From contig OZ037765.1 of the NCBI GenBank assembly GCA_964035545.1, positions 8,194,698 to 8,258,697 of the forward strand: 64,000 nucleotides of DNA, read 5' to 3'. Source of the stretch: Bugula neritina (taxonomy: Eukaryota > Animalia > Bryozoa). Position numbers and translations under genes: made by a program. The notes below the pieces were generated by a model that made no database searches, had not been told where the DNA came from, and saw nothing but the letters and a program-made list of their open reading frames with translations. Shown in pieces: positions 23,925 through 64,000 of this stretch; the first letter of the stretch is position 1; each line of letters starts with the position of its first letter.

Positions 23925-31533
<7,609 letters not shown>

Positions 31534-31769: not shown

Positions 31770-34700
31770 CTACCATGTCGATCTTGTAACCCCTGAGAGT
31801 TTATTGTAATCTGCTAATAACCTCCACTGTATTCTGCTGAGACGGTACCTGCTAACCAATCCTCTTGGTCTAGAGGTTAAAACACATCTTTTGTGTATTC
31901 TAGTTGGAAAGGCATCTCTAGGTAGCTTAGTTATATCTAGTTCTGCTTGTTCCTGTAATACAATAGCAAATTACAATAATTTACAGTGCTTAAGATTGTT
32001 CAAGCCGAGAATTCATAGAGTAAAGCCGTATTTTTAAAAAGATAGTTGATAAAAATAAAGTAATGAATCATAATATAATTATTTAGTTAATAGGGTTGGT
32101 TTCAAAAAGCTATTTATAAAAAATAGCCTCACTACACACATTGCTTGAAGCCCAGTTTTTTGTCCTCTCAATAAAATCATAGATTTTAACTGCAATAGCT
32201 GCGACCTCTATCTAGCTTCAAAAAATGCTAGGGAAGTACTTATAAAATAATCTCTCTTTAGAAAAGAACTATGAAAGCCCCCCCCCCCCCCCCAAGACCG
32301 CATAGCGGGCCCCAGTGTGACATAATTCTGCATTAACAGCTTTCCTAACTCAAACTTTAACTTAGAAACAAATTAACAAAAGACAATGGTGAACCAATAT
32401 ACCTGCAGTTCTTTGGGTAGAATTTTGCTTCGCTTGATAGAAGTCAGTCGGATTCTTTCATTGTTGAATTGTTTGGACAACTCCCTTCTTTTGACATCTC
32501 TTCTCATCCACTTGTTCACATAGCTAGCAAATCGGGAAGAAGTAGAACAACAAGTACTAGCTGCTAAGAAAGTCCTATTGGCAATTGAACCAACGTTCTA
32601 AAAATAGATACAACCACTATAAATTTAACTTATTTTTTAAAAGTAGTTGATAAGCATTAGTTGCTAAATGAAAGAATAATATAAATTTGAGAAAATATAA
32701 AGGTTCCTTTTATTAGAATATTAATTATTTATTGGCATTAGTTCTACTGATTGGCAATTAACTTTTCACAAGCTAACCTTACAAGTTATATCAACTCACA
32801 AAGGAGCATTAAGAAGCCTAATGCTAAGCACTACCCGAAAAATAGCAAATCTAGCTTCACTTGAATTAATGGAAGCCTGTCTTATGACACAGGTATCTTG
32901 GTCATAAATATTATTAACAATAAATCCACAATGATGATTATAAAATAACTATAAAATATGATGATAATTTTATATTCAACAAGTATCCTGCCTTAAAACA
33001 AGATTAAAGTATAATATTAATTAACTTCGAAATTATAGAAACTCAAACAATACAAATTTATAGGTTAAGGATTTTTTAATTAAGTTTTTATTATGAATAG
33101 AATCATTATGATATAGATGTCATTATCATTATGATGGCAATTATTTTTGAGACGAAATTACTTATGACAAATGTATGTGTATCACTATCAGTATAAGACT
33201 AAGTTGATTATATTGTAGTAATTTATGTAACTACTATGCGTGGGTTCCTAGCTTGTAATTATGTCTATTTATCTACACCAATAAAGTATTTAGGTAAAAG
33301 CTTCCAAGTTTATTTACTACTAAATATATAAAAGATACAGCTCGTACACAGATTAGAGATTACATCTTCGCTTAGTTAGCACGCTCTCTCTACTGCAAAA
33401 CTACTACTAACTAACTCAGGCCTATCACGTGACGCACTTGGATAGGCTGAAGGAATGCGGGGGACGCGCGTATTACGTCCTCACTACACCGCCCCCTCCA
33501 GCAGAAAGCCCTACTTTCTGATAACACAGACTAGATAATTCAAACATAAAATGTCATAAAACTATATATATATAAAAACTGAGAGAGCGTGTGGCACACA
33601 AAGGAAAACATGGCTATGTACAGTAGTAAGAAACATATACATACATAAAAAAATATAACAGTAAATGTACAATGGCACCGGCGGGAGGCACTATAAGGGA
33701 ATAGTTTGTAGAGGTAGAGCTGTATACTGGTAGGTTACTATATTGTTACACTGAGTAATTGTCTGTGAGCACTAGCGTGAGAAGGGTCTGTACTGGGGCA
33801 CCACCTGCTGTACCATCACGGATAGGAAAGGAGGGACATCACCTTCAAGCACTTCCTTTCATTCGGGCTACAGAGGCAGAGAGGGCCCGGAGTTCTGATG
33901 CGGCGGCGGAGATTCTCGGTGTCAGTCTTTGCACCTCTTTCTCTAATTCTCGTATCCGCTCTTCTGCCTCGCCTAGATTCCTGGCGGGGGCAGAGTGTCG
34001 ATTGGGGGATGAAGATGGCCAACGCCGCTTACGAGACGGCCTTGGGGAGACAGGGGGGGAGGGACGCCATCGCTGTGGTATATCGATGCGTCGTAACACG
34101 ACTCTTGGTATAGAGTCGGGGCGAGGCACTGTGCGTGCGGGGGGTGAGGAATGGGATATGCGGGGTTTCCTATATCCGGGTGGTTTAGGGCAGGGTCCCT
34201 GTGTGATGGTCCTGGGTGCGGGGAACTCCTGGCGCAGCCGTTCATATCGAACTGGGTCTGATATGAACGGTCGGATGAGATTAAGGAATTGTGGAAAGGA
34301 GGGTTCGTCGACTTCGAATAGGTGTCCAATATGGCATCCCATGGTTCGTTGGTGACGGAGGATGTAGTCCCTGTGGTAACTATATTCACCACAGGGACAA
34401 AAGGTGGTGAAGTAATGTTGGGGAATATGAACTCGGAGTCTTCGTGGGGTAGTGAAGTGAAGCTGGCATAAACGGCAGGTGGTGCATTGGTCATCTCCTT
34501 TGTGCTCTCGTATCAGTGTTTCCGTATCTGTTGTAACCCAGCATGATTGTTGTAGGAGTGCCTCCGGAAGAGTAGTGGGAACGGGTTCCTCGTTCCAAGC
34601 CATTTCTAGTGACGGCATGTCACCAGATAGAGGAGAGAGAGCGGTATCTAAAAGAGCAGAATTACTGTTAGATCGGATATGATCTTTACACCATAATTCT

Positions 34701-37700
34701 GATGACAACCGACTGTTACTAGTCTGAGAGTCATACATCTTTTCAGATAGCACTCGCGGGACTGAGTCGTGTCGTGTAGACTGACAGAGAGACATAGTGT
34801 CAAGCTCCAGATCTAGTAGATCGTCGGCCATCTTTATGTTCTCGTCGCCTTTCACGTAGGACTCAGTCCCCAGTAGTTGTGATTCAATCAAGGCGATTAA
34901 ATCAGAACTGACTGATGGTAGACTGGTTTCCATGAGTGGAAATGTTAGCTCAGAGCAAGCTTACCTGAGAACCCGGTATTTGTAATCATACTCAGCGTTC
35001 AAGCTTGGATGTCCGTGGATTGAGTTTGAATGCGTCTTCCCTTGACAATGTCAGCGTACGAAAAGACTGGGCAGCGTGGTTGTTGCGCACGGCTGGAACT
35101 ATTTGCCTCGGGCGTAGTAGTTTTGTTTACTACTCCGCCTTCGCAAAAGTTGAGATTTCCGTGGTGTTCACAACTCCCACGCTTTGTTGCCAGTCTTTCC
35201 GTACGGCGCCCAGCTAGACTTTCATAACTGCCGTTTGTAACACGGTCACATATGAAATCTTTAAGGTATGCTGGGGGTTGTCTAGTACGCTGTCCCCGTT
35301 CCAGGGGAGGTGACGCATCAGCTGGAGAGGGAGTTGTAGCTGTTGGTTGGGGCGGCGTACTCACTGGTGGGCTATTTTGCTCCACCTGTGGTGTTTCTGG
35401 CCCGCCGTTGGTGGTGGTGTTCCCCTCTCTGCTGTTGTCTCCAGATGGAGCCCCTCCCACGGGGGGGTTTTGCACTTCCGGACGCGGATGCGGAACCGGA
35501 AGTGGTGGGGGTAGACTTGGTACTGGGGGCGGTGGGCGCACTTCCGTTGGTGGGAGTGGCGTCTCCTGCCTCACTAAGTCCTCTCCCCGCGGCACAACCA
35601 CTTCGTATTCTGGTCCATGCCGTTGCCGCCCACGCGTTACTGTCTGCCTCCTGGGCTCCAACAACGGGGGGGCTGCTCCTGCTGCTCCTGGGCTAGCCCA
35701 ATACGGTTTCAAGCGGGCTTCGTTCTGGACAGAGACCTGTCCAGATCGCTCCAACTTGTACGTATGATTGGGCATAGCTTCAACTACTACGTAGGGTCCC
35801 ACAAACTTAGGCTGGAGCTTAGCCGCTTGTCCTCGACGCCTACGGTAGTTGATCATCCACACCCAGTCCCCAGTTCGATAGAGGGGTGGTTCCTGAGAGT
35901 CCTCTCGCCGTACCTGCCACTGCTTTGCCCGCAGTATTTCGTGTGCGGCCCTCAGGTCCTCTATCAATTTACTGGCATACTCGTGGATGGTATAGTCCTG
36001 CTCTGGGATGTGGTATGTGAGGTGGTCAGGCACTCGCGTCTCTCGACCGAGCATCAGGAGGTTAGGGGTTTCCCCCGTACTGGTGTGTGGTGTACTACGG
36101 TAGGCCCGCATGACTTGCGGTAGTACCGTATCCCACTCCTCCTGACCCCGGCCGAGGAGCAGGCTGCGCAGTGCATCGCCCAACATGCGATTGTTGCGTT
36201 CCACCACCCCGTTGCCCTGAGGATGGTACGGGGTGGTCCTGCTTTGGTTCACTCCCCAGAGGCGGCAGAGGTCGCTCAACAGTTGGGACTGGAATTGAGC
36301 CCCCTGGTCCGAATGTATTTGCTCAGGTAGTCCAAGATAGCAGAATACATTTTGGTCCAGCACCCTGGCCACCGTGGGGGCGGACGCATCTGGAATAGCC
36401 AGGGCATCCGCCCACCGTGTAAAGTGGTCGGTTAATACTAGGATCCAGCTGTTTCCCCTGGGGGTGACGGGCATGGGTCCGACTAGGTCGATAGCTACCA
36501 CCTGCCATGGCCTTCCAGCATATAGCCGACGCCGTCCCGCTTCACCAGGGATACGGCCATGCTTGCTGGCCTGGCAGATTTCGCATTGTTTGACTCTACG
36601 CCGCACCTCACGCTCCATGCCGGGCCAGTACCACCGGAGTTGTAACTTGGAGAGAACCCTGCTCACTCCGGCGTGGGCTTGCTTGTGGGTGTCCCATACT
36701 AACTCCCGGCGTATGGCGGCTGGGCAGATCACCCTTTGTCTGCCGTATTGGTTGTTGTGAGCAGCCACTGTGATGGTCAGCAGACCATCTGGCCCGATCC
36801 GCAGGGAATCCCAACGTTGGCAGTACAACCGTAACTCGGTGCATCCCTGCCGCAGTTGTTCTTCACTGGGTCGTCGCCCCTCCTTTTTGGCACGATATAC
36901 GTCGGCTACCACTCCAGGGAGGTCCTCCTGGAGTCTTCGTAGCTCTCTAACGTTATCAGCCAAGACAGGATTGGCACGGAGGCGTTGGATAGCCTCCGGG
37001 GGCGTAGAGGCCTTCTGTAGGAGTTGACCCTGGTCCCAGTCATACTCCGTTTCAGAGTGGTTCAGTGCTCTCAACTCGGATTTTGGAGGACCTCCGTCCC
37101 TCTTCTCGATGTTGAGGCACTGTTTACACCCCTCGTCCGGTCGCCGGCTCAGTCCATCAGCATTGCCGTGTTTCTTACCGGGTCGGTGTTCGATCCGGTA
37201 AGAGAACTCGGCCAGGACCTCGAGCCATCGGGCGACTTGGCTGGACGGTTCTGCTCTCTTACATGACCAAATCAAGGAGGCGTGGTCGGTCCGCAAGCGG
37301 AACTTCCTGCCGTATAGATAAGGTCTGAAATGCTTCACCGACTTGATTACTGCCAGCAATTCCTTTCGGGTAGTGCAGTAATTTCGTTCAGTGGGCGAGA
37401 GAGACTTACTGTAGTAGGCCACGACTACTTCGCGGCCCTCCTGCACCTGGGACAGCACAGCGCCGACATTTTGGTCACTGGCGTCAGTATCGAGGATGTA
37501 CTCCAGGGCAGGGTCTGGATAGGCCAGGATAGGGGCCTCCAGCAGGCGGCCTTTGAGGCAGTCGAACGCTCTCTGTTCGACGGGAGTCCACTGCCAGGTC
37601 ACCCCCTTTGCGGTGAGCCGGTTTAACGGCTGCGCTACCCCCGCAAAGTCTGGTATGTATTGCCTGTAATACCCTACCAGCCCCAGGAAAGCCCGTAGCC

Positions 37701-40700
37701 CGGTCAAATCCTGGGGGGTTACCCAATCTTCTATAGCTCGTACCTTTTCAGGATCCGTCGCCACGCCGTGGCGGCCGACGATGTGCCCTAGGTACTTCAC
37801 CTCTGGCTGCAAGAGAGCGCACTTGGAGGGTTTGAGCTTCAGATTGGCGCCTCGGAGTCGATCGAAGACCTCCCGCAGACGACTGACGTGCGTCTGAAAG
37901 TCTGGGGAGATCACGATGACGTCGTCGAGGTACACTAGCAGTGTCTTCCAGTGGAGTCCACTGAGGACCTGTTCCATGAGCCGCTGGAACGTGGCGGGGG
38001 CGGAAGTCAGTCCGAAGGGGAGGACTTTCCACTTCCATAAGCCGTCCCGCGTGATGAACGCCGCCTTCTCCTGGGCGTCTGGGCTGAGGGGGACCTGCCA
38101 ATAGCCGCTCAACAAGTCTAGCGTACTGAAGTACTTGCTGCCGGCTAAGGCGTCCAGAGATTCGTCGATCCTGGGTAAGGGGTAGGCGTCCTGTATGGTC
38201 ACGCTATTGAGCTTGCGATAATCCACACAGAACCGCCAACTGCCGTCTTTCTTTCGGACCAGAACGACCGGTGAACTCCACGCGCTATGCGCTGGTTCGA
38301 TGAGGCCGCGGTCCAAAAGATCCCGGACTTGTTGGCTTACCTCTTTTTCCTTCTCTGGTCCCAGCCTCCTGGTGGGCTGCCGAATAGGGGTAGTCCCTGC
38401 AGCCAGCAATATCTCATGACGGACGGCCGTGGTCAGGCCGACGTCATGGTCCCCACTGCTGAACACGTCGCTATAATCACGTAGCAACTGAGCCATAGTC
38501 TGGCGTTCCACGTTGCCCGTGCAGCCGTTACACGCTGCCTGGTATAGCTCTTTGACGTGTGATGGGACGGTCCCCCGCCTAACTGACGGGCTCTGTTGGG
38601 GACCTTCCGTCGCAGCTCCCAGCGACGGCCCTACATCCCCCTCCTGGATGGAGTGGAAGCGACCCAGCATGGATCCTGACGGTAATTGTACCGCTTCGGA
38701 GAAAGGGTTGACACACTGCACCAAGATCTCTCCTCGGCCAGTCAGCCGGTTAAGACTGCTGGCGAGTTGGATTCTAGAGTGCGCACCTTCGACAACCCCT
38801 AGCCCCGAGAGTTGGCTATTGTTCACTCTGCAGTGAACGGTAGCCCGGGAGCGGCCGGGTATAGTACAGTTGCGTACTACCTGCACACCTCCCGCTAGAG
38901 GACGACCGAACTTGTCGACACAGGTGAGCTCTTTGCCGCCCATTAGCATGGCTGACTTGCTAAAGTCAATATGGCACCCGTGTCTCTTCAAGAACGGCAT
39001 CCCTAGTATGGCATCTTCCTCCAGTGGGCTGATGACGAAGGTTTCCTGAATGGCTTGGTCGCGGACGCGCCCAGCCAATTCTATGATACCGTAGAAAGGA
39101 ATCCGTGACCCGTCAGCTAGGGTGCCCGGTTCCCCGGTATAGGGAGCTAAGGCTCCCCTCTCCTTGAGAGGGAGGGTGTCGAAGACCCGACGGCTGAGGA
39201 TATTAGTGGTACACCCGGAGTCTAACAGGAAGGTGACAGCTTTACCGGCCACCTTCCCTGGCAAGAAGTAGCTGCCTCCGTGAGGTTGTACCCGTATTCC
39301 CCCAGCGTGCTCGGTCTCGGCCGAACGGGGCTGTGCCCGTTTGTTCCGCGGTTTGCGGGGCCGGTGAGAGTTTCCTTGCGGGGAGGTGTTCTGATCCTCC
39401 CCGATGCCCTGAGGGGCCTCGCTGGTCTGTTCCATTACTGGTAACGGACTGAAGCGGTTGGTGAGAGGCAGAGAGAAGGGGTCTCGTGGTCGACCTGGTT
39501 GGCTGGTACGGCGAGGTGTTTGCCATTGACGGGGGGTGTGTCGCTGGGCCCGTACGGGCTCCTGGCGACACCCACCCCGTTTTTCTCTCTGTGTGTGTCC
39601 GCGGAGCTCTGGGGGTCTCCGGGGAGGTTGTGGTTTCTGCTGCCGTTTGAATCGTGGGCCGCTCAGGTGGCGGTGTCCCTGACTGCCGCTTTCCCAGCGT
39701 CGCATCATGGGTCTTGGGGGTTTTGCTGCCGTCCTCTTACTCTTCCTTGAGTGGTTGTATGTCATCGTCGCCACCAATTGTCCCAGTCTAGTCATCAAGC
39801 GGCTTATCTCCGTCTCTATGGGGTTTTTAGTGGTCGCGGCAGCTATGCGGACCGGATGGTCTGGTTCCCTAGAGGGCTGTGGCGTGGCCTCCTCCGTCTT
39901 ATAGTCGTTCGGCTCCAGCGTAGGCCTTGTTCTCTTGGATTGCAGCCTCAATTGTGGTCACTCCCTTGGCTTGCAACTGGTGATGGAAGTCCAAAGAATT
40001 GAGAGACTGTACAAAGGCTTCGAATGTGTAGTGCCGTCTGTGTGTTTCTGGCAGATCGCTATACGCGGTCCGTGCCAGTCTCTGCACCAGAGTGGCGTGG
40101 TCAGAAAGCGGTGTACATGTCTTGCGGAGTAATCCTCGCAGTCTGGACTTGGCGACGGCAACGGGCATGCCAAAACGGGCCCGTAGTGTAGCAATGATCC
40201 CGTTTATGCTAGGCTTCCACCCGTACGGCTTGGCTTCTCCCGTCAGTGCCATCCGCAGTTTTGTAAGGGTTACTCTTGGCGGCCATCTTGCAATGGCGGC
40301 AGTTTCACGGAATTCTTGAACGAATTGTTCAATATCCTCGCAGCCTGTGAACACGGGAACCTCCAACATGTTCCTATATACCTCCTCTCCAGCTCCGAGA
40401 GGGCCTATAATAATGTTCTGCTCACCTCCTTCCATTGCAGTTACTCCTTCGTCCATGATGTTCTAATACTTCTCATTGTTCTAATACAGTAGCTAGAAAT
40501 CCCACCGCTGCCACCACTGTAGTAATTTATGTAACTACTATGCGTGGGTTCCTAGCTTGTAATTATGTCTATTTATCTACACCAATAAAGTATTTAGGTA
40601 AAAGCTTCCAAGTTTATTTACTACTAAATATATAAAAGATACAGCTCGTACACAGATTAGAGATTACATCTTCGCTTAGTTAGCACGCTCTCTCTACTGC

Positions 40701-41611
40701 AAAACTACTACTAACTAACTCAGGCCTATCACGTGACGCACTTGGATAGGCTGAAGGAATGCGGGGGACGCGCGTATTACGTCCTCACTACAATATTACA
40801 GACTCAGACTGAGACTAACCAAGTCTTAGTCTAATCCAATAAAAAAAAACTTATAGTCACTTTATAGTCACTATCCCTGTGAGAAACCCCTGATAGAAAG
40901 GGTTTTTGTTAAAGCGGGCTAAGGACTTATTTAAAATGAGGCACAGGAGCAATTATGACTGGATGCTCTTCCTAACATCACCAATGGCCTTTAGTACTGG
41001 GGGTTTAAACTCATGAATTCGTGCTTACTAAGCTAATGCTCTAACCTCTAGGCCACGGCTGCTCCCTAGTCTAATCCAATAACAATATGCTTAAATAAGT
41101 TTTGAGCATTGATTTTGAATGGATACATAAATTATAAAATCATTTATTAACAAATATACTAATAATAATAAATAATAACTAACAGTAACTCTAAGATAGA
41201 CTGAGACTTAAGACTAAAGTTTAATTATAATTTATGTTATTGTGGTGGTCACTAGTGGCTGAGATAGTTACAGTTGCCGTTGAAGCCATTGACGCAGGCC
41301 GTAACAATCACAATGTGAATGTAAACTCAAGCTGAATCTGACAGAAATACTGAACAGACGTGACAGTTTGAGTCACAGTGAGTGTGATAATCAGTGTGAG
41401 TGTGACATTCGAAGAGGGAGCACTGATAGAGATAACTCACTAACTATAAGTTAATGTAAATGTATAACTATAAGTATAAGTATTACTATAAGTATAAGTA
41501 TAACTATAAGTTAGTATAAGTATAACTATAAGTATAAGCATTTCGATTTTACTTTTTAGTGACGTGCCCTACCGTTGAAACAACAGAAAAAGCTTGTTGA
41601 AATAGGCTCAT
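31770..41611 (-). CDS. MRPS14: Mitochondrial ribosomal protein S14 (uS14m), 3 exons, about 138 aa
   Basis: Exon 32597-32403 reads ..YVNKWMRRDVKRRELSKQFNNERIRLTSIKRSKILPKELQ and exon 31952-31770 reads ..LPRDAFPTRIHKRCVLTSRPRG..RLSRIQWRLLADYNKLSGVTRSTW*. The likely first exon is 41611-41573 (MSLFQQAFSVVST, GTAGGG donor, phase 0) on the far side of the Gypsy insertion, and this assignment is less certain than exons 2-3. Confidence 0.9.
33214..33488 (-). repeat. 3' LTR of Gypsy element 1
   Basis: Direct repeat of 40518-40792. Contains a minus-strand AATAAA (33309-33314) and a CACGTG E-box. Confidence 0.96.
33489..33500 (-). other. Polypurine tract of element 1
   Basis: TGGAGGGGGCGG lies immediately before the 3' LTR on the minus strand. 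Confidence 0.85.
33845..34933 (-). CDS. Gypsy ORF3 in the env position: zinc-finger / basic / coiled-coil protein, 362 aa, not Env-like
   Basis: Intact ORF between pol and the 3' LTR. It has a canonical C2H2 finger CRLCQLHFTTPRRLRVHIPQH, a variant finger CPCGEYSYHRDYILRHQRTMGCH, a basic RPSRKRR patch and a C-terminal heptad repeat. No signal peptide or transmembrane segment is visible. Confidence 0.85.
   Translation of the reverse strand: METSLPSVSSDLIALIESQLLGTESYVKGDENIKMADDLLDLELDTMSLCQSTRHDSVPRVLSEKMYDSQTSNSRLSSELWCKDHIRSNSNSALLDTALSPLSGDMPSLEMAWNEEPVPTTLPEALLQQSCWVTTDTETLIREHKGDDQCTTCRLCQLHFTTPRRLRVHIPQHYFTTFCPCGEYSYHRDYILRHQRTMGCHIGHLFEVDEPSFPQFLNLIRPFISDPVRYERLRQEFPAPRTITQGPCPKPPGYRKPRISHSSPPARTVPRPDSIPRVVLRRIDIPQRWRPSPPVSPRPSRKRRWPSSSPNRHSAPARNLGEAEERIRELEKEVQRLTPRISAAASELRALSASVARMKGSA
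34999..39951 (-). CDS. pol: Gypsy Pol frame of element 1 (former Gag C-terminus fused to protease, RT, RNase H and integrase)
   Basis: Protease LLDSGCT (about 39214-39222), RT YLDD (37921-37932), RNase H LDTDASD, integrase HHCC plus D-D-E (IDLVGP, SDQGAQF, VVERNNR) and a GPY/F module. The ORF opens at a TTG, so the true initiation or recoding route is unclear. Confidence 0.95.
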   Translation of the reverse strand: MRLQSKRTRPTLEPNDYKTEEATPQPSREPDHPVRIAAATTKNPIETEISRLMTRLGQLVATMTYNHSRKSKRTAAKPPRPMMRRWESGSQGHRHLSGPRFKRQQKPQPPRRPPELRGHTQREKRGGCRQEPVRAQRHTPRQWQTPRRTSQPGRPRDPFSLPLTNRFSPLPVMEQTSEAPQGIGEDQNTSPQGNSHRPRKPRNKRAQPRSAETEHAGGIRVQPHGGSYFLPGKVAGKAVTFLLDSGCTTNILSRRVFDTLPLKERGALAPYTGEPGTLADGSRIPFYGIIELAGRVRDQAIQETFVISPLEEDAILGMPFLKRHGCHIDFSKSAMLMGGKELTCVDKFGRPLAGGVQVVRNCTIPGRSRATVHCRVNNSQLSGLGVVEGAHSRIQLASSLNRLTGRGEILVQCVNPFSEAVQLPSGSMLGRFHSIQEGDVGPSLGAATEGPQQSPSVRRGTVPSHVKELYQAACNGCTGNVERQTMAQLLRDYSDVFSSGDHDVGLTTAVRHEILLAAGTTPIRQPTRRLGPEKEKEVSQQVRDLLDRGLIEPAHSAWSSPVVLVRKKDGSWRFCVDYRKLNSVTIQDAYPLPRIDESLDALAGSKYFSTLDLLSGYWQVPLSPDAQEKAAFITRDGLWKWKVLPFGLTSAPATFQRLMEQVLSGLHWKTLLVYLDDVIVISPDFQTHVSRLREVFDRLRGANLKLKPSKCALLQPEVKYLGHIVGRHGVATDPEKVRAIEDWVTPQDLTGLRAFLGLVGYYRQYIPDFAGVAQPLNRLTAKGVTWQWTPVEQRAFDCLKGRLLEAPILAYPDPALEYILDTDASDQNVGAVLSQVQEGREVVVAYYSKSLSPTERNYCTTRKELLAVIKSVKHFRPYLYGRKFRLRTDHASLIWSCKRAEPSSQVARWLEVLAEFSYRIEHRPGKKHGNADGLSRRPDEGCKQCLNIEKRDGGPPKSELRALNHSETEYDWDQGQLLQKASTPPEAIQRLRANPVLADNVRELRRLQEDLPGVVADVYRAKKEGRRPSEEQLRQGCTELRLYCQRWDSLRIGPDGLLTITVAAHNNQYGRQRVICPAAIRRELVWDTHKQAHAGVSRVLSKLQLRWYWPGMEREVRRRVKQCEICQASKHGRIPGEAGRRRLYAGRPWQVVAIDLVGPMPVTPRGNSWILVLTDHFTRWADALAIPDASAPTVARVLDQNVFCYLGLPEQIHSDQGAQFQSQLLSDLCRLWGVNQSRTTPYHPQGNGVVERNNRMLGDALRSLLLGRGQEEWDTVLPQVMRAYRSTPHTSTGETPNLLMLGRETRVPDHLTYHIPEQDYTIHEYASKLIEDLRAAHEILRAKQWQVRREDSQEPPLYRTGDWVWMINYRRRRGQAAKLQPKFVGPYVVVEAMPNHTYKLERSGQVSVQNEARLKPYWASPGAAGAAPPLLEPRRQTVTRGRQRHGPEYEVVVPRGEDLVRQETPLPPTEVRPPPPVPSLPPPLPVPHPRPEVQNPPVGGAPSGDNSREGNTTTNGGPETPQVEQNSPPVSTPPQPTATTPSPADASPPLERGQRTRQPPAYLKDFICDRVTNGSYESLAGRRTERLATKRGSCEHHGNLNFCEGGVVNKTTTPEANSSSRAQQPRCPVFSYADIVKGRRIQTQSTDIQA
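39899..40456 (-). CDS. gag: Gag capsid-like ORF of element 1, 185 aa, ending before the nucleocapsid region
   Basis: Aligns to the N-terminal two thirds of the element 2 Gag (FTG.E..EQF.QEF, WPPRV.L.KLRMAL..AKPYG, LRARFG, AYSDLP). Confidence 0.88.
   Translation of the reverse strand: MDEGVTAMEGGEQNIIIGPLGAGEEVYRNMLEVPVFTGCEDIEQFVQEFRETAAIARWPPRVTLTKLRMALTGEAKPYGWKPSINGIIATLRARFGMPVAVAKSRLRGLLRKTCTPLSDHATLVQRLARTAYSDLPETHRRHYTFEAFVQSLNSLDFHHQLQAKGVTTIEAAIQENKAYAGAERL
40499..40516 (-). other. Primer binding site complementary to the 3' end of tRNA-Leu (AAG/TAG type)
   Basis: TGGTGGCAGCGGTGGGAT starts 1 nt after the 5' LTR and is the reverse complement of the ...ATCCCACCGCTGCCA-CCA end of metazoan tRNA-Leu. 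Confidence 0.9.
40518..40792 (-). repeat. 5' LTR of Gypsy element 1
   Basis: 275 bp, TG...CA, adjacent to the PBS and matching 33214-33488. Confidence 0.96.
40843..41066 (-). mobile_element. tRNA-headed SINE with a 16-bp TSD
   Basis: The minus-strand head GGAGCAGCCGTGGCCTAGAGGTTAGAGCA carries an A box, followed by a degenerate B box GAGTTTAAACCC, a (GTGACTATAA)2 repeat and a T-run tail. The TSD TAGTCTAATCCAATAA is at 40827-40842 and 41067-41082. Confidence 0.8.
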
Positions 41612-45234: not shown

Positions 45235-48200
45235 ATGAAGTGTCAGGCAAAGTTAAGAGTCACTCCAACATCCTCTAAGGAGATAGAGTCTAATGGAGGG
45301 GAAAATCTCTATGCTGAAGTTGCACCACTGCCCATTGCCTGTGCAAATCAGCAACTAGATTTTTACAATCAGGTTATTCAAGATAAGCATGGATGTGGTA
45401 GTCTCAGTACTAAGACAAAAGTGAGTCAAAATGCTGAACAGAATGCTGACGTATCAGAAGAGCCAGCAACTTGTACAGTTACAACACCGACATTACCAAA
45501 GAAATGCGAGTTCATATCTATTGATGGAGATCCGGAGAAAAACCTCCCTGGCCAAGATAACTCTTCCACAGTGAAGGTAAACTAGTCCATTAGCAATGTC
45601 AATTTTATCAACACAAGTATAATCATATCATCAATAAAACTTGTTACAACCATATTTCTTTACGTGCAACAGCTAAAGCCCCCCCCCCCCAAACTGCAAT
45701 TAACCAAGGATTTAGTGTATTTTACAAGTACAAAAATAGTATGAAACTGGAAAAATGAGTTTCATATAATTCAACAAAGTAAAATGAACAATGGCTATAC
45801 AATTTTGCCCTCAGCCATACTAATGATTCATGGTTGTTTGCTGTAATAATAATAAATTGATTGATCTATGACTCAGAATGCTTCTATAATACCATTGTCT
45901 TCAATGATTGGCATAGCGATCAAAGAACTAGTTGCAGACTAATGAAAAGACATATAAAAACAATAGGTCAATAGACAGTTGCAGAATGTTGTCATTAGAA
46001 TTAATAACAACAATACCAACATATTCCATTATAATACCAGTGATATAGTTACCAATTGACATTATTTATCACAAAAGATTATTCATCAGCAAGCCAAACT
46101 AACAAATGTAGGCAGCATATTTAAAATGTCAGCAGCAGTTTCAGGCAAACAAAAAAGTAATTGAAACAGGATATAGAAATGCAGAGCCCAGGTGGCCATC
46201 TTGCAGCCCTGTTGTGATAATTGATTCCAATTATGAGCGTTGGTTGCTGTTAAAATGGCTATTCTGTTGTATTGATGGTTGCAATTCAACATTACGAAAG
46301 AAAAGATCAACATCTAAAGTGTTTAATGAAATATTATAATGCTTAAGACAACTATCTGTAGTCAAGGGTTACAGTGTTGGAGATTAAAGTTAGTGTTAAC
46401 ATTAGTGTCAGTGTGTATAGTAAATACTCAATGCTCAAGGGAATAATTATAACAGTTTGCATATCGTGTGCTTTTTATTGACTTTTGCCGATTCACCTCA
46501 TAATAGCCTACGTTATCAATGCATTCCATTTAGTTTTACTGATTTTCAGTAGAGGAGTAGACGCACATATTGCTTACTGCAACACAGTTAGTTATAAAGT
46601 GCTTTTCAATACTATCAGTCAGCAAGCAATTGATTTATAAGGAACTGCCATATACACACTGTTGTCTTGGGTTCTGGGACAATAAACCGATAATGTCTAG
46701 GGGCAAAGGCTGGATTGCTACAAACATTTCTCCCTTTTATTTTCTGGAACCATTTAGACAACGAGACACAGAAAAGGTAAACTCAGCTGCCAATGAGTAT
46801 ATTTTTATTCAACTGTCTGGCAGCTTTAGCTTTATTCACCCGGAGTTCAATATGGCTCTATTGACTCACTGTTTGTATATCAGGTTCTTAATGATGTTCT
46901 TGCTTCATATAATTTGCCTTATTGTTGTTACACACAATTCAATGTTGTTATAAACTGGATATTGATGCTTGGTAGCTTGTTTGTCTAGGATATCTAATTC
47001 ACATTATTGATAGGTCTCAGTTTTCATTCTTCAAAGAGGCGGCTTATTCCTATGAAAATGCTCTTCTAGTATTCTGTTAGTACACATCTTGTAGTTTAGC
47101 CACATATTTCCAATATAAATGTAGATAAAGTATTATAATTTGATTAGAAGAGTCAACATGATCTTATCTAAAGAGGTAAAGTATGCTTACTGTTTTCCAA
47201 TTTTTCACTGCACATTTACAAATAGGCTATCCTGTTGCAGAGTATGCAATCAGCAATTTATATTTTTTGTGCTCAAGTATGATACTATTAATCAAGCATG
47301 CACAAACATATTCCGAAGTTTTGCAGATTTATCTGCAGATAGAAATGAACTTTATAAAGGTTTAAGTTTAATTGTAGTGATATCACTGTGAAATTTTCTC
47401 TTGCTAACTACTACCCAGGCTTTTCATTTAAATAATAAATACTTAGATGAAAAATTTTAAAAAGCTGAAAGTTAACCATAGATACGACTATTTTCTAGTT
47501 TCAAATGACTGTTAACTAACAACTTACAGATCTCAAAGCACAGATTACAAGTTTATAAACAATTATTGCAACTAATTAAAAAGAAATGAGACATAACATG
47601 TTGGTTCTAAGAACTAACAGTCTGAGATGCTTATAACAATTCGAAGCTGTGTTTATGTTGCAGCATAACATTATTTGCCAATTTCCGTATTTTTTGATTT
47701 TGTAGAACTCAAATAGAGTATTAGTACGACCTATTGCCTTCAAGCCTGTAGTTCCGAATAGAGGAGATAGGAGCAGCCCCGCAGCCTCTTCTTTTACACC
47801 AACACTGTATGACGATGGATACTCCTCCCAAGGCACAAGTAGAGGATGCAGTAACAGCGTGTCTGCATCATCCGGGGAATCATCCGACACCTACTACGCC
47901 AGCCCAATACACACCAGTACTTACCCTAACGATCTTCCAGCAACTCAACATGAACAGAGTTTGAGTCCAGATTTGATTAACTATGAAAAATTATTGCAAG
48001 AGAAAGAATCTGAAATCTTGCAACTGAGGCGAACCATGGAGCTAAATGAGAGTGCTATGGTACGTGTGCATGAACATAAACGGATAGAGTGGGAGAACCA
48101 GATGAAAGAATTGACACAGGAATACCACCGGCGACTGAGATTAAAACAAGATCAGTCGAATGAGAAGGAGCTAGATCTACGGGACATAATATCAAAATTA

Positions 48201-48776
48201 GAAATGGACAACCGGCAGCTGTCTGTCAACATACAGCAGCAACAGATAGACCAAGATCGGCAGCAACAACTGAGCAGTCAGTTACACGAACTGAAGCAGC
48301 GGCATGCCGACATGACTCAGAGACTGTCACAGGAAACGTGTGAATCTGATAAATTAAGGCACAGAAATAAAGAACTAGAAGCTACAATTCAGACTTTACA
48401 AGAAAAATTAGCTATAGGAACAGCTGAACAAAATAAACTTCAAGAAAAAGTTTCAAAAAGTTCAGATACATCCACAACCCAGACTAAACAGCTAAGTGAG
48501 AGGCTGCAGCAATTGGAGAATGAGATTCTACAAGAACGCGGAAACTTTTGTATCGAAAGACAAAAATGGAAGGAGGAAAAAGAGAAAGTGCTACAATATC
48601 AAAAACAATTGCAAAAGACTTACAGCCAAATGTATAGACGAAATAATGAGTTGGAGCAGCAGTTATGTAGAATTAACAGCAGAAGGCAAGCCAGACGGGA
48701 GAGCTTACAGAACAACATGGACAGGTTCAGCTTGCTTAGTGTTGACATTGAAACCACACCAGAATCATTCTGCTGA
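45235..48776 (+). CDS. LZTS/N4BP3-family (Fez1-domain) coiled-coil protein, 2 coding exons, about 470 aa
   Basis: Exons 45235-45576 (donor GTAAAC, phase 0) and 47706-48776. Family motifs are VRPIAFKPVVP and WKEEKEKVLQYQKQLQKTYSQMYRRN..LE, with a long coiled coil and a C-terminal ESFC (PDZ-binding-like). Confidence 0.82.
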
Positions 48777-58442: not shown

Positions 58443-58748
58443 TGTGGTGGTTCGTGGAACTACCAGCAGCACAACATGTAGGGTCGCGTAATTGACCCGG
58501 AACAATGGATAGCCAATTAGCGTAGTTGATAGTTAGCAGCAATTGTAGTTTCCCGCTGCTAACTCAGTCGAAGCTAGAGTGTGAAATAGATTAGATGTAT
58601 AACTTGTTGGAAATAATGTATCGTGTTTTTATAATGTATAGTTGTGTATAAAATATACTCGTTCACTCGACTTATCCTGGTGCAGTTCTATAGTAGATAA
58701 ATAGACTCTCTGGATAGCACATCAACCCTAAATCTGAAAATCTTAACA
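58443..58748 (+). repeat. Putative 5' LTR of element 2 (about 306 bp)
   Basis: TGTGG...TAACA ends 1 nt before the PBS. The left boundary is inferred from the compositional switch because the partner LTR is outside the window. Confidence 0.75.
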
Positions 58749-58749
58749 G

Positions 58750-58767
58750 TGGTGGCAGCGGTGGGAT
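58750..58767 (+). other. Primer binding site (tRNA-Leu) of element 2
   Basis: TGGTGGCAGCGGTGGGAT, identical to the element 1 PBS. Confidence 0.9.
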
Positions 58768-58779
58768 AGTGCATCCAAG

Positions 58780-59733
58780 ATGGAGACTGAAAATGCTGGA
58801 ACTCAACCACCGGCAATCGAAGGTGAGCGTAGAGACAATGCTGTAGAGACAATGCCTGTTAACCATGTAGTAGAAGAGCAAAGGGTTCCGCGAGAACTAG
58901 CTGAAGACCGCTACAGGTTAAAGGCGCCCACCTTCACGGGTGAAGAGGAGGTGGAACAATTTATCCAAGAGTTTAGCGACGTAATGGACGTCGCTCAGTG
59001 GCCCCCTAGGGTGGCCCTGCTGAAGCTTAGAATGGCATTGATGGACAAAGCCAAGCCCTATGGGCTGGGCGTAGACATTGATAATATCTTTGCTTCTCTG
59101 CGGGCCCGCTTTGGCCTCTCTGCTACAGATGCCAGGGCCCGATTGCAGAGGTTGCGGCGTGATCCCCGCACCCCGCTGCGGGAGCATGCCGCCGCGGTCA
59201 TGAAGCTGGCACAGATCGCGTACAGCGACTTGCCCCCAGTCAACCGCGAGAGGTACACCCTCGACGCTTTCATAGCATCTGTCGACGATCTGGGTCTCCA
59301 CCACCAGTTTCTAGCTAGGGGAGTCACCACCGTTGAAGATGCCCTGACTGAGGGGGAAGCTTACCTCCTAGCTAATCAAATGCATAAAAGTCGCGGAAGC
59401 TCCCGCCAAGTGGAGATAGACCGCGCAGACACGGCCGCGGCACAAGGGGAGGAAACCCCCGCCGCGGCTGCCGTGTCCCAGTTGGCGACGGCATCAAAAG
59501 TCACTCAACTGACGGACATGCTAGCCCAGCTGATAGCAACACTGACACCACAAAACCCAGTGAGTACCGCCCCTGAGCCCATGCGGCCATCGGCGCCGCC
59601 ACAGGGAGAAACAGTCAGTTTTTGCTGGGAGTGCGGAAATCAAGGACATTTCCGCCGATATTGTCCCTTCCTAAATCAGGGGTTAAACTACCGCGGCCCG
59701 CAGATGTTCCCACCTTCCGCGGGCCGACGATGA
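58780..59733 (+). CDS. gag: Gag of element 2, 317 aa, capsid-like region plus CCHC zinc knuckle
   Basis: Starts just after the PBS and contains the knuckle CWECGNQGHFRRYC (C-X2-C-X4-H-X4-C). Confidence 0.92.
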   Translation: METENAGTQPPAIEGERRDNAVETMPVNHVVEEQRVPRELAEDRYRLKAPTFTGEEEVEQFIQEFSDVMDVAQWPPRVALLKLRMALMDKAKPYGLGVDIDNIFASLRARFGLSATDARARLQRLRRDPRTPLREHAAAVMKLAQIAYSDLPPVNRERYTLDAFIASVDDLGLHHQFLARGVTTVEDALTEGEAYLLANQMHKSRGSSRQVEIDRADTAAAQGEETPAAAAVSQLATASKVTQLTDMLAQLIATLTPQNPVSTAPEPMRPSAPPQGETVSFCWECGNQGHFRRYCPFLNQGLNYRGPQMFPPSAGRR

Positions 59734-59746
59734 AACCTCTAGGGAA
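59682..59746 (+). promoter_or_regulatory. Candidate -1 ribosomal frameshift signal
   Basis: G_TTA_AAC heptamer in the gag frame (59682-59688), a 5-nt spacer and an 8-bp stem CGGCCCGC/GCGGGCCG (59694-59701 with 59719-59726). Loop TTCCC can pair with GGGAA (59742-59746). Confidence 0.7.
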
Positions 59747-62700
59747 GAAGAAACGCAGGTCACCTAGACGGGTACCGCGTACTGGCAACCAACAGTGGCA
59801 ACAGCCACGACGGACCAGCAAGGGGCTTCGCCCCGCGGCTGCCTTTTCTATGCCCCTTCACAACAGATTCACAGGGCTACAAGTCCAAGAATCTGGATGG
59901 GAGCACACAAAGGTAGCTGAGAATCTAGCCTCGGCACCCCCGAGGCCTACCTATCACCGCCCCAAGAGACCTCCTTCGCGACCCAAAGTGAGGGAGGTAC
60001 TCCCTGCGAGAGTAAGGCCTGAAGGGAGAGTTCAGGTGCAGCCCCATGGGAACAGCTATTTCTTGCCCGGTAAACTGGAAGGCAAAGCTGTTACTTTTCT
60101 CATTGATTCGGGCTGTACCACAAACCTCTTAAGCCGCCAACTCTTCGACACCCTCAGCGCTAGGGTCAGGGGCGAGATGGAAGCATACGAAGGGGAATAC
60201 GGCACCCTAGCTGACGGGTCGTGCCTTCCTTTCTATGGTATAATTGAGCTGACGGGACGAGTCCGCGATCAAACGATCCAAGAGACGTTCATCGTCAGTC
60301 AGCTCAAGGAGGATGCTATCCTCGGGATGCCGTTCCTTAAACGGCACGGATGTCACATAGATTTTAGCAGATCTGCAATGATGATGTCCGGGCGGGAACT
60401 CGCCTGCGTCGACAAGTTCGGCCGCCCTTTAGTAGGAGGTGTGCAAGTGGTACGCAACCGTACCATACCAGGCCGCTCCCGGGCTACCATTCACTGCAGG
60501 GTGAATAGTAGCCGGATCTCTGGACTCGGGGTGGTTGAAGGCGCGCACGAAAAGATCCAACTTGCCAGCAGTCTGAATCAGCTGACTGAGCAAGGGGAGA
60601 TCTTAGTGCAGTGCGTCAACCCCTTTACCGAGCCTATCAAGCTCCCGGCTGGGTCGATGCTGGGCCGTTTTCACTCTGTTCAGGAGGGAGACGTAGGCCC
60701 GTCGCTGGGTGATGCGACAGAGGCACTCCCTCGACACCCTATTCAGGGACGAGGGGCAGTCCCCGCACATCTCCGGGAGTTATATGAAACAGCCAGTGGC
60801 GGCTGCGCGAGTAACCGGGAACGCCAAGCTATGGCTAAGTTACTACGCGACTACGGTGATGTGTTCAGCAGCGGGGAGCATGACGTGGGACTGACTGGAA
60901 TTGTCAGACACGAAATACCGCTGACTGCAGGGACAGTCCCTGTCCGGCAGCCCACCCGCAGGTTGGGGCCGGAGAAAGAGAAGGAGGTTAGCCGACAAGT
61001 ACGGGATTTTCTGGACCGGGGACTGATAGAGCCCACCCATAGTGCGTGGAGCTCGCCAGTCGTACTGGTCCGGAAGAAAGACGGCAGTTGGCGGTTCTGT
61101 GTGGACTACCGCAAACTCAATAGCGTAACCATACAGGACGCCTACCCTCTACCTCGTATTGACGAGTCATTGGACGCCCTAGCCGGCAGCAAGTACTTCA
61201 GTGCGTTAGACTTGCTAAGCGGCTATTGGCAAGTTCCTCTGAGTCCCGACGCCCAGGAGAAAGCGGCGTTTATCACACGGGACGGTTTGTGGAAGTGGAA
61301 GGTGTTGCCCTTCGGGTTAACCTCCGCCCCAGCCACCTTCCAGAGGCTGATGGAACAAGTCCTTAGCGGACTCCATTGGAAGACACTGCTGGTCTACCTC
61401 GATGATGTCATCGTAATCTCTCCAGACTTCGAGACACATGTCAGTCGTCTGCAGGAGGTTTTCGAGAGACTCCGAGGTGCCGGTCTTAAGCTCAAACCTT
61501 CCAAGTGCGCTCTATTGCAGCCGGAGGTCAAGTACCTGGGGCACGTTGTCGGTCGAAACGGCGTGGCAACGGATCCCGAAAAGGTACGGGCAGTAGAAGA
61601 CTGGGTCACCCCCCAAGACTTGACCGGACTCCGGGCTTTCTTGGGGCTGGTAGGGTATTACAGGCAATACATACCAGACTTTGCGGGCATAGCCCAGCCG
61701 TTAAACCGGCTCACCGCAAAGGGAGTGACGTGGCAGTGGACTCCAGTCGAACAAGGAGCGTTCGACCGCCTCAAGGGCTGCCTACTAACGGCGCCCATCT
61801 TGGCCTACCCAGACCCCACTCTGGAGTACATCCTTGACACGGACGCCAGTGACCAGAATGTTGGCGCTGTACTGTCACAAGTGCAGGAAGGCCGAGAGGT
61901 AGTAGTAGCCTACTACAGCAAGTCTCTCTCACCCGCTGAACGAAATTACTGCACTACCCGCAAGGAGCTGCTGGCAGTAATCAAGTCAGTGAAGCACTTC
62001 AGACCATACCTATATGGCAGGAAGTTCCGGCTGCGTACGGATCATGCCTCGCTGATCTGGTTGTGCAGGAGAGCAGAGCCCTCTAGTCAGGTCGCCCGGT
62101 GGCTCGAAATCCTAGCTGAATTCTCGTACCGGATCGAACACCGACCGGGCAAAAGACACAGCAATGCGGATGGGTTGAGTCGCCGACCTGACGGAGGTTG
62201 CAAACAGTGTCTCAACATCGAAAGGAGGGATGGAGGTCCCCCACGATGCGAGTTGGAGACGCTGGCTCATCACGGAGCACCGTTTGATTGGGATCAAGGT
62301 CAACTCAGGCAAAGAGTTGATGAGTCCCCGGAGGATGTACAAAACCTCCGCGCCAACCCTGTACTGGCCGGTAATGTTCGAGAGCTGAAGAAGCTCCAAG
62401 AAGAGCTGCCTGGAGTCGTGGCAGACATATACCGGGCCAAAAGGGAAGGGCGACGACCCAGCGAGGAACGCATACGACAGGGATGCGCCGAGTTCCGGCT
62501 ATACTGTCAGCGTTGGGACTCGCTGCGGATCGGGCAGGATGGGTTGCTAACCATCTCTCTAGCTGCCAGCGGCAGACATCCGGAAAGGAAGAGGGTAGTC
62601 TGCCCCACAGCCATCCGCCGTGAGTTGATTTGGGATACTCACAAGCAGACCCACGCAGGGGTCAAGCGAGTGATGTCCAAATTACGACTTCGGTGGTATT

Positions 62701-64000
62701 GGCCACAAATGGAGCGTGATGTCCGGCTCAGAGTCAAACAGTGTGAGATCTGCCAGGCCAGTAAGCATAGCCGCCCCCCTGGTGAAGCAGGACGGCGGAG
62801 GCTATACGCTGGTAGGCCCTGGCAAGTAGTCGCTGTAGACCTGGTCGGACCCATGCCCCTGACCCCCAGAGGCAATAATTGGATCCTAGTACTAACCGAC
62901 CACTTTACTAGGTGGGCGGATGCTCTGGCTATCCCAGACGCATCAGCCCCAACAGTGGCCAGGGCACTAGACCAACACGTATTCTGTTATTTTGGGCTCC
63001 CCGAACAGATACACTCTGATCAAGGCGCTCAATTCCAGTCTCAACTGATGAGCGACCTTTGCCGCCTCTGGGGAGTAAATCAGAGCAGGACCACCCCCTA
63101 CCACCCTCAAGGTAACGGGGTGGTGGAGCGCAACAACCGGATGCTAGGTGATGCACTCCGGAGTCTCCTCCTTGGACGAGGTCAAGAGGAATGGGATACG
63201 GTGTTGCCGCAAGTCATGCGTGCATACCGTAGCACCCCACACACCAGTACTGGTGAGACCCCAAACCTCTTGATGCTCGGGAGAGAGACTCGTGTCCCCG
63301 ACCATCTCACCTATCACGTTCCAGAGCAAGATAACTCAGTCCACGAGTATACCAGTGAACTAGTGGAACGGATGAAGGCCGCACACGAGATACTGCGCCA
63401 ACAGCAGTGGAAGGTGCGGCACGAAGATTCCGATGAACCACCCCTCTATCAAAAGGGAGATAAGGTGTGGATGGTCAATTACCGTAGGCGCCGCGGACAG
63501 GCTGATAAGCTGAAGCCTAAGTTCGTAGGCCCCTACGTGGTTGTCGAGGCTATGCCCAATCATACGTACAAGATTGAGCGCTCAGGAAAGGTATCTATCC
63601 AGAATGAGTCTCGCTTGAAACCGTATTGGGCTAGCCCCGGCGGAGTGGGAGAAGCCCCCCCGTTGTTAGAGCCCAGGAGGCAGACAACAACGCGCGGGCG
63701 ACGGCGGCATGGACCTGAATACGAAGTGGTCATACCGCGGGAAGAAAACTTGGTGAGAGAGGAGCGGCAGCTTCTACCAACAGAAGCGTGTCCGCCACCG
63801 CCAAGTCTAATTCCATCACTTCCAGAAACCGAGCCGGTTCCGGAAGTGCAAACCCCCACGGAGGGAGGGGCTCCATCCGGAGAACAAGAAGAGGTGACGG
63901 CTGACGGTGAAGTAGAGACGCCATTAGAGGCCCCTACTAACGAACCGGCAAGCGTGTCACCCCCCCTAGAAAGGGGACAGCGTACGAGGCAACCCCCCGC
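59682..64000 (+). CDS. pol: Pol of element 2 (protease, RT, RNase H, integrase), -1 frame relative to gag, open to the window edge
   Basis: One frame carries FLIDSGCT, YLDD (61395-61406), LDTDASD, the integrase motifs, FVGPY and PPLERGQRTRQPP at the edge. Its absence from the ORF track is consistent with no stop codon being reached. Confidence 0.93.

What the first reader, a model, noticed from the sequence alone, without database searches (positions are those of the whole stretch)
33845..34933. Gypsy retrotransposon with a transcription-factor-like third gene (C2H2 fingers, NLS, coiled coil) where env would be
Seen: an intact 362-aa ORF inside a young element. It has an acidic/Ser-rich N-terminus (MADDLLDLELD) and a textbook C-X2-C-X3-F-X5-L-X2-H-X3-H finger (34477-34415). 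A second C-X-C-X12-H-X5-C/H finger follows (to about 34331), then a Pro/Arg region with RPSRKRR and six heptads L-I-V-I-L-V (about 33976-33857). There is no signal peptide or transmembrane helix. Established: third ORFs of animal Gypsy elements are usually envelope or fusogen proteins, and Gag knuckles and integrase HHCC motifs are not classical C2H2 fingers. Inference: an element-encoded nuclear oligomeric nucleic-acid-binding accessory factor, such as an LTR transactivator, anti-silencing factor or integration tether, analogous to accessory genes of complex retroviruses. I do not recognise a described family.
Basis: partly seen in the sequence, partly recalled or inferred. Interest (0 to 1): 0.87.

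Follow-up and report, generated by a model that had tools for sequence, protein, structure and literature searches.

The report
Gypsy transposon zinc-finger accessory gene
A recently inserted jumping gene of an animal carries an extra, conserved zinc-finger gene where viruses keep their envelope gene; in many relatives the same module is fused to the integrase, and it likely works as the element's own nuclear regulator, a kind of helper seldom seen in such elements.

Summary
Observation confirmed. ORF3 (33845-34933, minus) is an intact 362-aa gene after pol in a full-length Gypsy element with identical 275-bp LTRs. It has no membrane segment. It belongs to a large family with no Pfam name (284 hits at E<=0.001) under purifying selection (rough dN/dS 0.1-0.3). 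New here: the same cassette (acidic helix, zinc-finger pair, coiled coil) is fused in frame behind integrase in 32 of 120 related Pol proteins, all in one clade, and co-diverges with integrase. In this subfamily it is a separate ORF. It keeps a Met ahead of the helix even when fused, and both window elements have a splice-donor motif early in gag that is in phase with an acceptor motif at ORF3 codon 8. Best reading: a separately made nuclear regulator, most likely DNA-binding; RNA export (CERV/Rev-like) and integration tethering remain open. No RNA or binding data. The scan noted the fused form earlier on other DNA (e1-7276517). Closest precedent: CERV of Cer1, by position and logic, not by architecture.

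The parts
40518..40792 (-). 5' LTR, 275 bp, TG...CA; ATAT target-site duplication at 40793-40796
40500..40517 (-). primer-binding site directly after the LTR (tRNA-Leu type, assignment recalled); same 18-mer in element 2 at 58750
39899..40456 (-). gag ORF; stops before the region that carries the CCHC knuckle in element 2; the matching stretch of this element lies in the pol frame and has no cysteines
   Evidence: (translations compared by eye)
40420..40427 (-). splice-donor-like AG|GTGAGC, intron would start at 40425, phase 1 after gag codon 10 (predicted)
   Evidence: same motif in element 2 at 58823
34999..39957 (-). pol, 1652 codons stop to stop: protease, RT, RNase H, integrase (H2C2, rve), Tf2-like SH3
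34934..34998 (-). 65-nt spacer between the pol stop and the ORF3 ATG; ORF3 is in another frame; acceptor-like CAG before 34964
33845..34933 (-). ORF3, 362 aa
34871..34915 (-). predicted amphipathic helix, aa 7-21; acceptor-like CAG before 34911, phase 1, in frame with the gag donor
34802..34831 (-). acidic leucine-rich stretch aa 35-44, spacing of a nuclear export signal (consensus recalled); M35 and L39 in 37 of 37, L44 in 26 of 37
34199..34573 (-). folded core, aa 121-245 (block pLDDT 93-98 for aa 121-240), holding both fingers plus flanking helices and a conserved VD strand
34415..34477 (-). finger 1, classical C2H2 spacing
34334..34399 (-). finger 2, C-x-C-x12-H-x5-C, non-classical
34094..34108 (-). 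PRVVL, a PxVxL-type (HP1 chromoshadow ligand) motif, conserved island in the disordered linker of the close subfamily only
   Evidence: motif definition PMC7465937
34022..34042 (-). basic NLS-like RPSRKRR; K302 in 38 of 41
33869..33976 (-). C-terminal heptad helix, aa 320-355
33489..33499 (-). polypurine tract
33214..33488 (-). 3' LTR; ATAT at 33210-33213
58477..64000 (+). element 2, sister family (LTR 58477-58749, gag 58780-59733, pol from 59577, 83% identical to element 1 over 1314 codons); cut by the window end before ORF3 would begin

Best explanation
ORF3 is an old, selected zinc-finger cassette of one Gypsy clade, fused to integrase in many families and separate in this one, and it is likely made as its own protein from a predicted spliced mRNA and likely acts in the nucleus as a DNA-binding regulator of the element's transcription. 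Shown: the gene, its conservation, its fused and separate states, its co-divergence with integrase. Inferred: splicing from a donor in early gag to an acceptor at the ORF3 start; nuclear import by the basic motif; binding of element DNA by the finger pair; dimerisation by the heptad helix; recruitment of host co-activators by the acidic helix, and in this subfamily contact with HP1 through PxVxL, which would let it counter silencing.
For: Separate ORF under selection: shifted-frame identity 37-45% against in-frame median 68-74%, simulated dN/dS about 0.1-0.3; 54 of 59 homologues that cover the N-terminus begin at the same place. A covalent tether could not survive the split. Whole cassette recurs in fused Pols after the integrase tail motif: acidic LxxLL-like helix in 10 of 20 scorable linkers (2.2 expected), heptad tail in 25 of 30, and a Met within 16 residues before the helix in 8 of those 10 (Met is about 2% of linker residues). 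Donor motif AG|GTGAGC in phase 1 early in gag of both elements; of four YAG sites near the ORF3 start only the one before 34911 is phase 1, and there codon 7 is S/P/A/T in 36 of 37 and codon 8 is V 15, A 11, D 11 of 37 distinct sequences, as a fixed CAG would give. Residues 143-199 superpose on tandem DNA-binding finger pairs (Kaiso, 57 residues, rmsd 2.7, Z 3.5) and the profile's best PDB sequence hits are C2H2 proteins. Net charge -13 for aa 1-120, +15 for aa 246-314. PxVx[LIVM] in 35 of 45 close homologues, 6.1 expected.
Against: No transcript data. The splice, export-signal, acidic-helix and PxVxL patterns were looked for after the fact, on related sequences that are not independent; the helix pattern does not match ORF3 itself. 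Start positions come from gene callers that favour Met, and one search excluded proteins over 634 aa. Fold matches are weak (Foldseek E>=0.86, Z<=3.5). Recognition-helix residues vary across distant members (R165 in 13 of 32). PxVxL is not enriched in fused Pols (5 of 32, 5.5 expected). Acidic leucine helices and basic motifs fit an RNA exporter as well. Five relatives have the upstream stretch open and in frame with ORF3, two of them including pol-tail sequence, so the split may be recent.
Confidence: 0.42

Rival explanations
1. ORF3 is a CERV/Rev-like factor: made from the spliced message, it binds unspliced genomic RNA through the fingers or the basic region, oligomerises, and exports it with the leucine-rich acidic motif.
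For: CERV sits in the env position, its last exon is in frame with the Cer1 polyprotein, it is spliced to gag exons, has a leucine zipper, NLS, candidate NES and Cys finger, and is needed for gRNA export (PMC10309623). An element with a donor in gag needs such a function. M35-x3-L39-x2-L42-x-L44 fits an export-signal spacing (consensus recalled).
Against: L44 is kept in only 26 of 37 (proline in 7). The fingers follow the tandem DNA-binding geometry (weak). CERV has a C4-type finger, ring-forming M domain and G domain, and was reported to have no homologues outside Caenorhabditis; the ORF3 model has one folded domain and a C-terminal helix.
Confidence: 0.25
2. The cassette is an integrase targeting domain, like the chromodomain of chromoviruses: attached to integrase, or supplied in trans or by rare read-through here, it tethers the integration complex to chosen DNA or chromatin.
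For: In frame behind integrase in 32 of 120 Pols, 198-727 residues after the SH3 region, reproducibly (five identical-length 2373-aa members in one cluster); co-diverges with integrase; PxVxL in the subfamily.
Against: It is a separate ORF in another frame here and still selected; the closest full Pol (P0223, 74% in integrase) also ends without it; own Met before the helix in fused forms; this copy sits about 0.6 kb from a housekeeping-gene exon in a gene-dense region, one site only.
Confidence: 0.2
3. The separate ORF is a lesion: active elements read pol through into the cassette, and this copy, or its recent lineage, is broken at the junction.
For: Fusion is spread across the clade; five relatives are open upstream of the Met; the gag-pol junction of this copy is also odd; several homologues are frameshifted dead copies.
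Against: 54 of 59 start at the ORF3 Met; among the best 150 hits of the length-unlimited search none was a Pol fused to a close ORF3; among the 12 best-supported indels shown of 33 in the one run laid, those near the junction come from one contig and sum to three bases; identical LTRs show recent mobility, though this could be in trans.
Confidence: 0.1
4. ORF3 is a recently captured, neutral piece of a host zinc-finger gene.
For: Finger 1 resembles host C2H2 fingers.
Against: Purifying selection; module distances track integrase distances, median module distance 0.77; no host protein matches beyond the 20-50 residues of the fingers.
Confidence: 0.02

Closest known systems
CERV of Cer1 (C. elegans Ty3/Gypsy), PMC10309623
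   Same: [quoted passage not shown]
   Different: CERV has an N-terminal zipper from gag exons, a C4-type finger, a ring-forming M domain and a G domain, and is confined to Caenorhabditis; ORF3 has a C2H2 finger pair in one compact domain and a C-terminal heptad helix. No sequence comparison was run (CERV sequence not in session).
Chromovirus integrase chromodomain and other integrase C-terminal targeting modules (recalled; a chromodomain clade in Cnidaria, Mollusca and Annelida is described in PMC13524379, passage)
   Same: Add-on at the integrase C-terminus in fused relatives.
   Different: No chromodomain hit in pol, ORF3 or five fused Pols; the module also exists as a free ORF.
Foamy-virus Tas/Bel1 and other retroviral accessory regulators (recalled)
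   Same: 3' accessory gene with acidic region, basic motif, predicted nuclear action.
   Different: No similarity found in BFVD (no match at E<=0.001); element is Gypsy, not a retrovirus.
Plant additional ORFs such as Grande gene23 (PMC7264820, passages)
   Same: Conserved extra ORF between pol and 3' LTR encoding a nuclear protein of unknown function.
   Different: Those are mostly antisense or env-like, in plants; 'zinc' does not occur in that review.
Host tandem C2H2 proteins (Kaiso/ZBTB, SALL, CTCF)
   Same: Finger 1 spacing; tandem finger geometry over about 50-57 residues.
   Different: Finger 2 is C-x-C; fingers are embedded in a larger 125-residue domain; no TGEKP-type linker (sequence shows this directly).

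Membership tests
Ty3/Gypsy LTR retrotransposon | Two LTRs (TG...CA), target-site duplication, PBS, PPT | tested here: met
Ty3/Gypsy LTR retrotransposon | pol order protease, RT, RNase H, integrase | tested here: met
Named Gypsy clade (Mag, CsRN1, Cigr, MolGy, PolGy, Gmr1 and others) | RT/RNase H placement with reference elements | not testable with these tools
Integrase follows RNase H, unlike Gmr1 as described in PMC8220671.
env-carrying Gypsy (errantivirus) | ORF3 with signal peptide and transmembrane helix, fusogen fold | tested here: not met
   max hydropathy 0.93; no Pfam env hit; model is a small zinc domain plus disorder
Classical C2H2 zinc finger | C-x2-C-x3-F-x5-L-x2-H-x3-H with conserved ligands (finger 1) | tested here: met
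   profile hits C2H2 proteins, best E 3.4e-8
Classical C2H2 zinc finger | Same spacing in finger 2; Pfam gathering score | tested here: not met
   C-x-C spacing; fourth ligand 3 of 32 in fused forms; no Pfam hit for ORF3, 1 of 77 relatives scanned reaches a zf-C2H2-type cut-off
Classical C2H2 zinc finger | Sequence-specific DNA binding | not testable with these tools
   needs DAP-seq or EMSA
CERV | 3' ORF in env position, in frame with the polyprotein | tested here: inconclusive
   position met; in frame in 32 of 120 relatives but not in this copy
CERV | Made from an mRNA spliced to gag exons | tested here: inconclusive
   donor and acceptor motifs only
CERV | H, M (C4 finger, ring) and G domains | tested here: not met
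   one folded domain with C2H2-type fingers and a C-terminal helix against the description; no direct alignment
CERV | Needed for export of genomic RNA | not testable with these tools
   bench test
Chromovirus | Chromodomain at integrase C-terminus | tested here: not met
HP1 chromoshadow ligand | PxVxL in a disordered region, conserved | tested here: inconclusive
   met in the close subfamily (35 of 45), not in fused Pols (5 of 32); binding untested

The most novel reading that the evidence does not exclude
A large, unnamed clade of animal Gypsy elements encodes its own zinc-finger transcription factor, the counterpart of the accessory regulators of complex retroviruses: made from a gag-leader splice, it binds the element's DNA as a dimer and, in this subfamily, grips HP1 to switch its copies on inside silenced chromatin; across the clade the cassette moves between being the tail of integrase and a free gene.
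Probability: 0.25. Interest if true: 0.88.

Novelty: new variant of a known kind. Interest (0 to 1): 0.68.

Why it matters
Animal Gypsy elements are treated as simple gag-pol(-env) parasites that depend on host factors. A clade-wide, ancient, selected regulator with a DNA-binding layout would show that complex-retrovirus-style self-regulation arose independently in them, and gives a single small protein with which to test how such elements escape silencing, export their RNA or pick insertion sites. The switch between fused and free states is a natural experiment on whether integrase add-ons act in cis or in trans. The 125-residue zinc domain has no Pfam model and could be defined from this alignment.

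Tried and rejected
No whole genome is held, so no copy census, no direct dN/dS and no view of element 2's 3' end. Scans for DNA around ORF3 relatives found none: metagenome contigs, viral contigs (20), prokaryote genome contigs (21); an integrase scan of viral contigs with the single protein matched nothing (87). Integrase-alignment scans gave 30 distant loci (25-47% identity), none with the module. No RNA holder listed. A closer look at copy differences within ORF3 in the one DNA run was not obtained; of the 4 ORF3 differences shown, 3 are synonymous, too few to count. The search for longer proteins with alignment A2 found none, but it also missed the 32 fusions known, so it is uninformative. 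Homodimer prediction: no verdict, score 0.03. Foldseek on PDB and BFVD: nothing at E<=0.001; the wide structural search was filled by the C-terminal helix; the core was not folded alone. ESM Atlas: ORF3 hits all under 0.9; a fused module's best hits are unnamed clusters with no taxa. Pfam DUF4140 (E 0.09, helix only) rejected as a coiled-coil artefact. LTR binding-site hunt: the two LTRs share only AT-rich 7-mers; short inverted repeats at the LTR start were seen by eye and not tested. Nine paper searches gave no description of this domain; Repbase, Dfam, GyDB and subscription journals could not be searched, and supplements of the annelid and mollusc surveys were not read and may hold members of this clade.
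Full report
1. The observation. Window 33845-34933 on the minus strand is an open frame of 362 codons. It lies between the pol stop (34999-35001) and a polypurine tract, inside an element that runs from 40792 to 33214 with two LTRs identical at 275 of 275 bases, an ATAT duplication, a primer-binding site, gag, and pol in the order protease, RT, RNase H, integrase, SH3. ORF3 begins 65 nt after the pol stop in another frame. It has no hydrophobic segment and no Pfam family of note. AlphaFold2 with a 53-sequence alignment gives one confident domain (about aa 121-245), a confident C-terminal helix (315-361), a short N-terminal helix (7-21) and disorder elsewhere (the 18-sequence model agrees).

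2. A selected family. A word-index search gave 74 homologues; a full HMM search gave 284 at E<=0.001, of which 150 were listed. The zinc ligands are kept in 94-99% of close homologues. DNA of the homologues could not be fetched, so selection was tested through frameshifted copies whose predicted proteins read the shifted frame. Eight such matches were found: four over the core at 37% (140 aa), 45% (119), 38% (50) and 43% (109); three others at 31% (77 aa, C-terminal part), 60% (20) and 48% (31); and one near-identical copy at 84%. In-frame identity over the core has a median of 68% (n=52) to 74% (n=53). In simulation, neutral change gives equal identity in both frames, whereas the observed gap needs dN/dS of about 0.1-0.3. 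This compares different copies and is rough. In the one public DNA run that holds the element, which may be the window's source, summed contig depth over ORF3 (6,900-12,600) is like that over gag (6,500-7,400) and far above the flank (103); the tool warns that this is no copy number.

3. Context of the relatives. One homologue reads through its stop into sequence that matches this element's 3' UTR, PPT and LTR start (E 3e-7 against that region, 2e-4 against the window). Several carry pieces of this clade's pol. The decisive result came from the other side: a search with the integrase end of pol returned 742 proteins, the best 120 listed, and a profile of the ORF3 core hits 32 of these 120 (E 3e-31 to 9e-9; next best 0.049) as an in-frame domain 198-727 residues behind the SH3 region. 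Seven ligands are kept in 28-32 of the 32. On an integrase tree of 120 rows (118 of the 120 proteins plus both window elements; P0316 and P0321 dropped as too short) all 32 fall in one 86-row branch (SH-aLRT 95) that holds the window elements, and none among the 34 rows outside; the tree is a quick, midpoint-rooted one. Many of the 52 unfused rows inside are probably truncated: two of them have cluster mates that carry the module. The closest full Pol, P0223, ends without it. Module and integrase distances correlate over 33 sequences (Spearman 0.69, 0 of 999 permutations; 0.68 without near-copies), so the module is old and inherited with the element. Thirty more distant integrase loci lack it. 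Its sequence was not shown, so identity with this family is likely but unchecked.

4. The cassette travels whole. After the usual integrase tail motif, fused Pols show an acidic linker, an amphipathic LxxLL-like helix (10 of 20 scorable, 2.2 expected; 10 lacked the tail motif and 2 were not located; the pattern was chosen after seeing examples and misses ORF3's own helix), the zinc domain, and a heptad tail (25 of 30). In 8 of those 10 a Met stands within 16 residues before the helix (some are near kin), as Met1 does in ORF3. In the window's subfamily 54 of 59 proteins that cover the N-terminus start at the ORF3 Met; 5 extend upstream in frame, two into pol-tail sequence. Gene-caller bias and the length limit weaken this count.

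5. How it would be expressed (inferred). The element's sense strand has three AG|GTRAGY sites in 7.6 kb; one is after gag codon 10, phase 1. Element 2 has one in 5.6 kb, after gag codon 14, also phase 1, in an otherwise diverged stretch. Of four YAG sites near the ORF3 start, only that before 34911 is phase 1 and would join the gag leader in frame to residue 8. Among 37 distinct homologue N-termini, residue 7 is S, P, A or T in 36 and residue 8 is V, A or D in all 37, the pattern that a fixed CAG would leave. Against this: the pyrimidine tract is poor, Met1 and E2 are also conserved, and a message spliced at 34964 and started at Met1 is an equal option. The tie to CERV is direct: its last exon is in frame with the Cer1 polyprotein and is spliced to gag exons (PMC10309623; seen: abstract, outline, passages, sections 6 and 15, supplement legends in the main text).

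6. What it would do (inferred). Persistence under selection after separation from Pol argues for action in trans. The layout, acidic helix, tandem fingers, basic motif, heptad helix, is that of a dimeric DNA-binding regulator. Residues 143-199 superpose weakly on DNA-bound finger pairs (best Z 3.5, rmsd 2.7 over 57 residues); no match is significant. The linker has a conserved island, PRVVL, that fits the PxVxL ligand of the HP1 chromoshadow domain (PMC7465937, passages): 35 of 45 close homologues against 6.1 expected, but it is not enriched in fused Pols, so it is at most a subfamily trait. I give the DNA-binding regulator 0.42, a CERV/Rev-like RNA exporter 0.25, an integration tether 0.20, a lesion 0.10 and neutral capture 0.02. 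That the cassette is made as a separate nuclear protein, whatever its ligand, I put at about 0.7.

7. Comparison with what is known. It is a Gypsy element and not an errantivirus or chromovirus. It works most like CERV or a retroviral accessory gene but fails the CERV architecture test. Passages of two annelid surveys, a mollusc survey and a survey of env-carrying elements hold no mention of such a finger (PMC8220671, PMC8556966, PMC6238403, PMC13524379; passages only), nor does a review of plant additional ORFs (PMC7264820, passages). Nine searches found no description; repeat databases were out of reach, so members may already be filed there without comment. Statements on Tas, Rev, chromovirus targeting, export-signal spacing and the tRNA type of the PBS are recalled.

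8. Verdict. A real, old, selected and apparently undescribed accessory zinc-finger cassette of a Gypsy clade, seen here in its free form: a new variant of a known kind, with function untested. Interest 0.68.

Noticed in passing
window 39899-39957 and about 39700 (-): Element 1's gag stops after 187 codons stop to stop; the stretch matching element 2's gag C-terminus lies in the pol frame and its zinc knuckle has lost all three cysteines. Programmed shift, family trait or lesion is not decided.
   Followed up: partly
window 31771-32600 (-): Two exons of a mitochondrial ribosomal protein S14-like gene (name recalled from the translation) start about 0.6 kb downstream of the 3' LTR, same strand; the insertion may lie in its promoter or first intron.
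   Followed up: no
window 14966-20525 (-), 29808-30038 (+), 47706-48776 (+), 49162-54423 (-): Host genes with introns: AMP-binding enzyme (acetyl-CoA synthetase-like, recalled), RNA polymerase Rpb8, Fez1/LZTS-like coiled-coil exon, WD40 gene. Host is an AT-rich animal; taxon not determined.
   Followed up: partly
window 86-6048: Tandem duplication with a period of about 3.24-3.28 kb, 77-96% identical, with broken reading frames.
   Followed up: no
window 51832-52246: 30-nt minisatellite, about ten overlapping copies, inside the WD40 gene region.
   Followed up: no
window 40861-41042: A very high-copy repeat abuts the 5' LTR (summed depth up to 450,000); an inverted copy lies at 52628-52668.
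   Followed up: no
P0091, P0122: Two relatives carry the zinc domain twice in tandem before the coiled coil.
   Followed up: no
P0212, P0130, P0136, P0200: ORF3-family proteins joined to pieces of this clade's protease or integrase tail, as internally deleted elements would give.
   Followed up: partly
P0408; L001-L029: Eukaryotic Gypsy integrases lie in bacterial and archaeal metagenome bins and one is named as a cyanobacterial integrase; these look like bin contamination.
   Followed up: no
P0314: A related Pol carries PF00692 and PF22769 hits (dUTPase family, name recalled).
   Followed up: no
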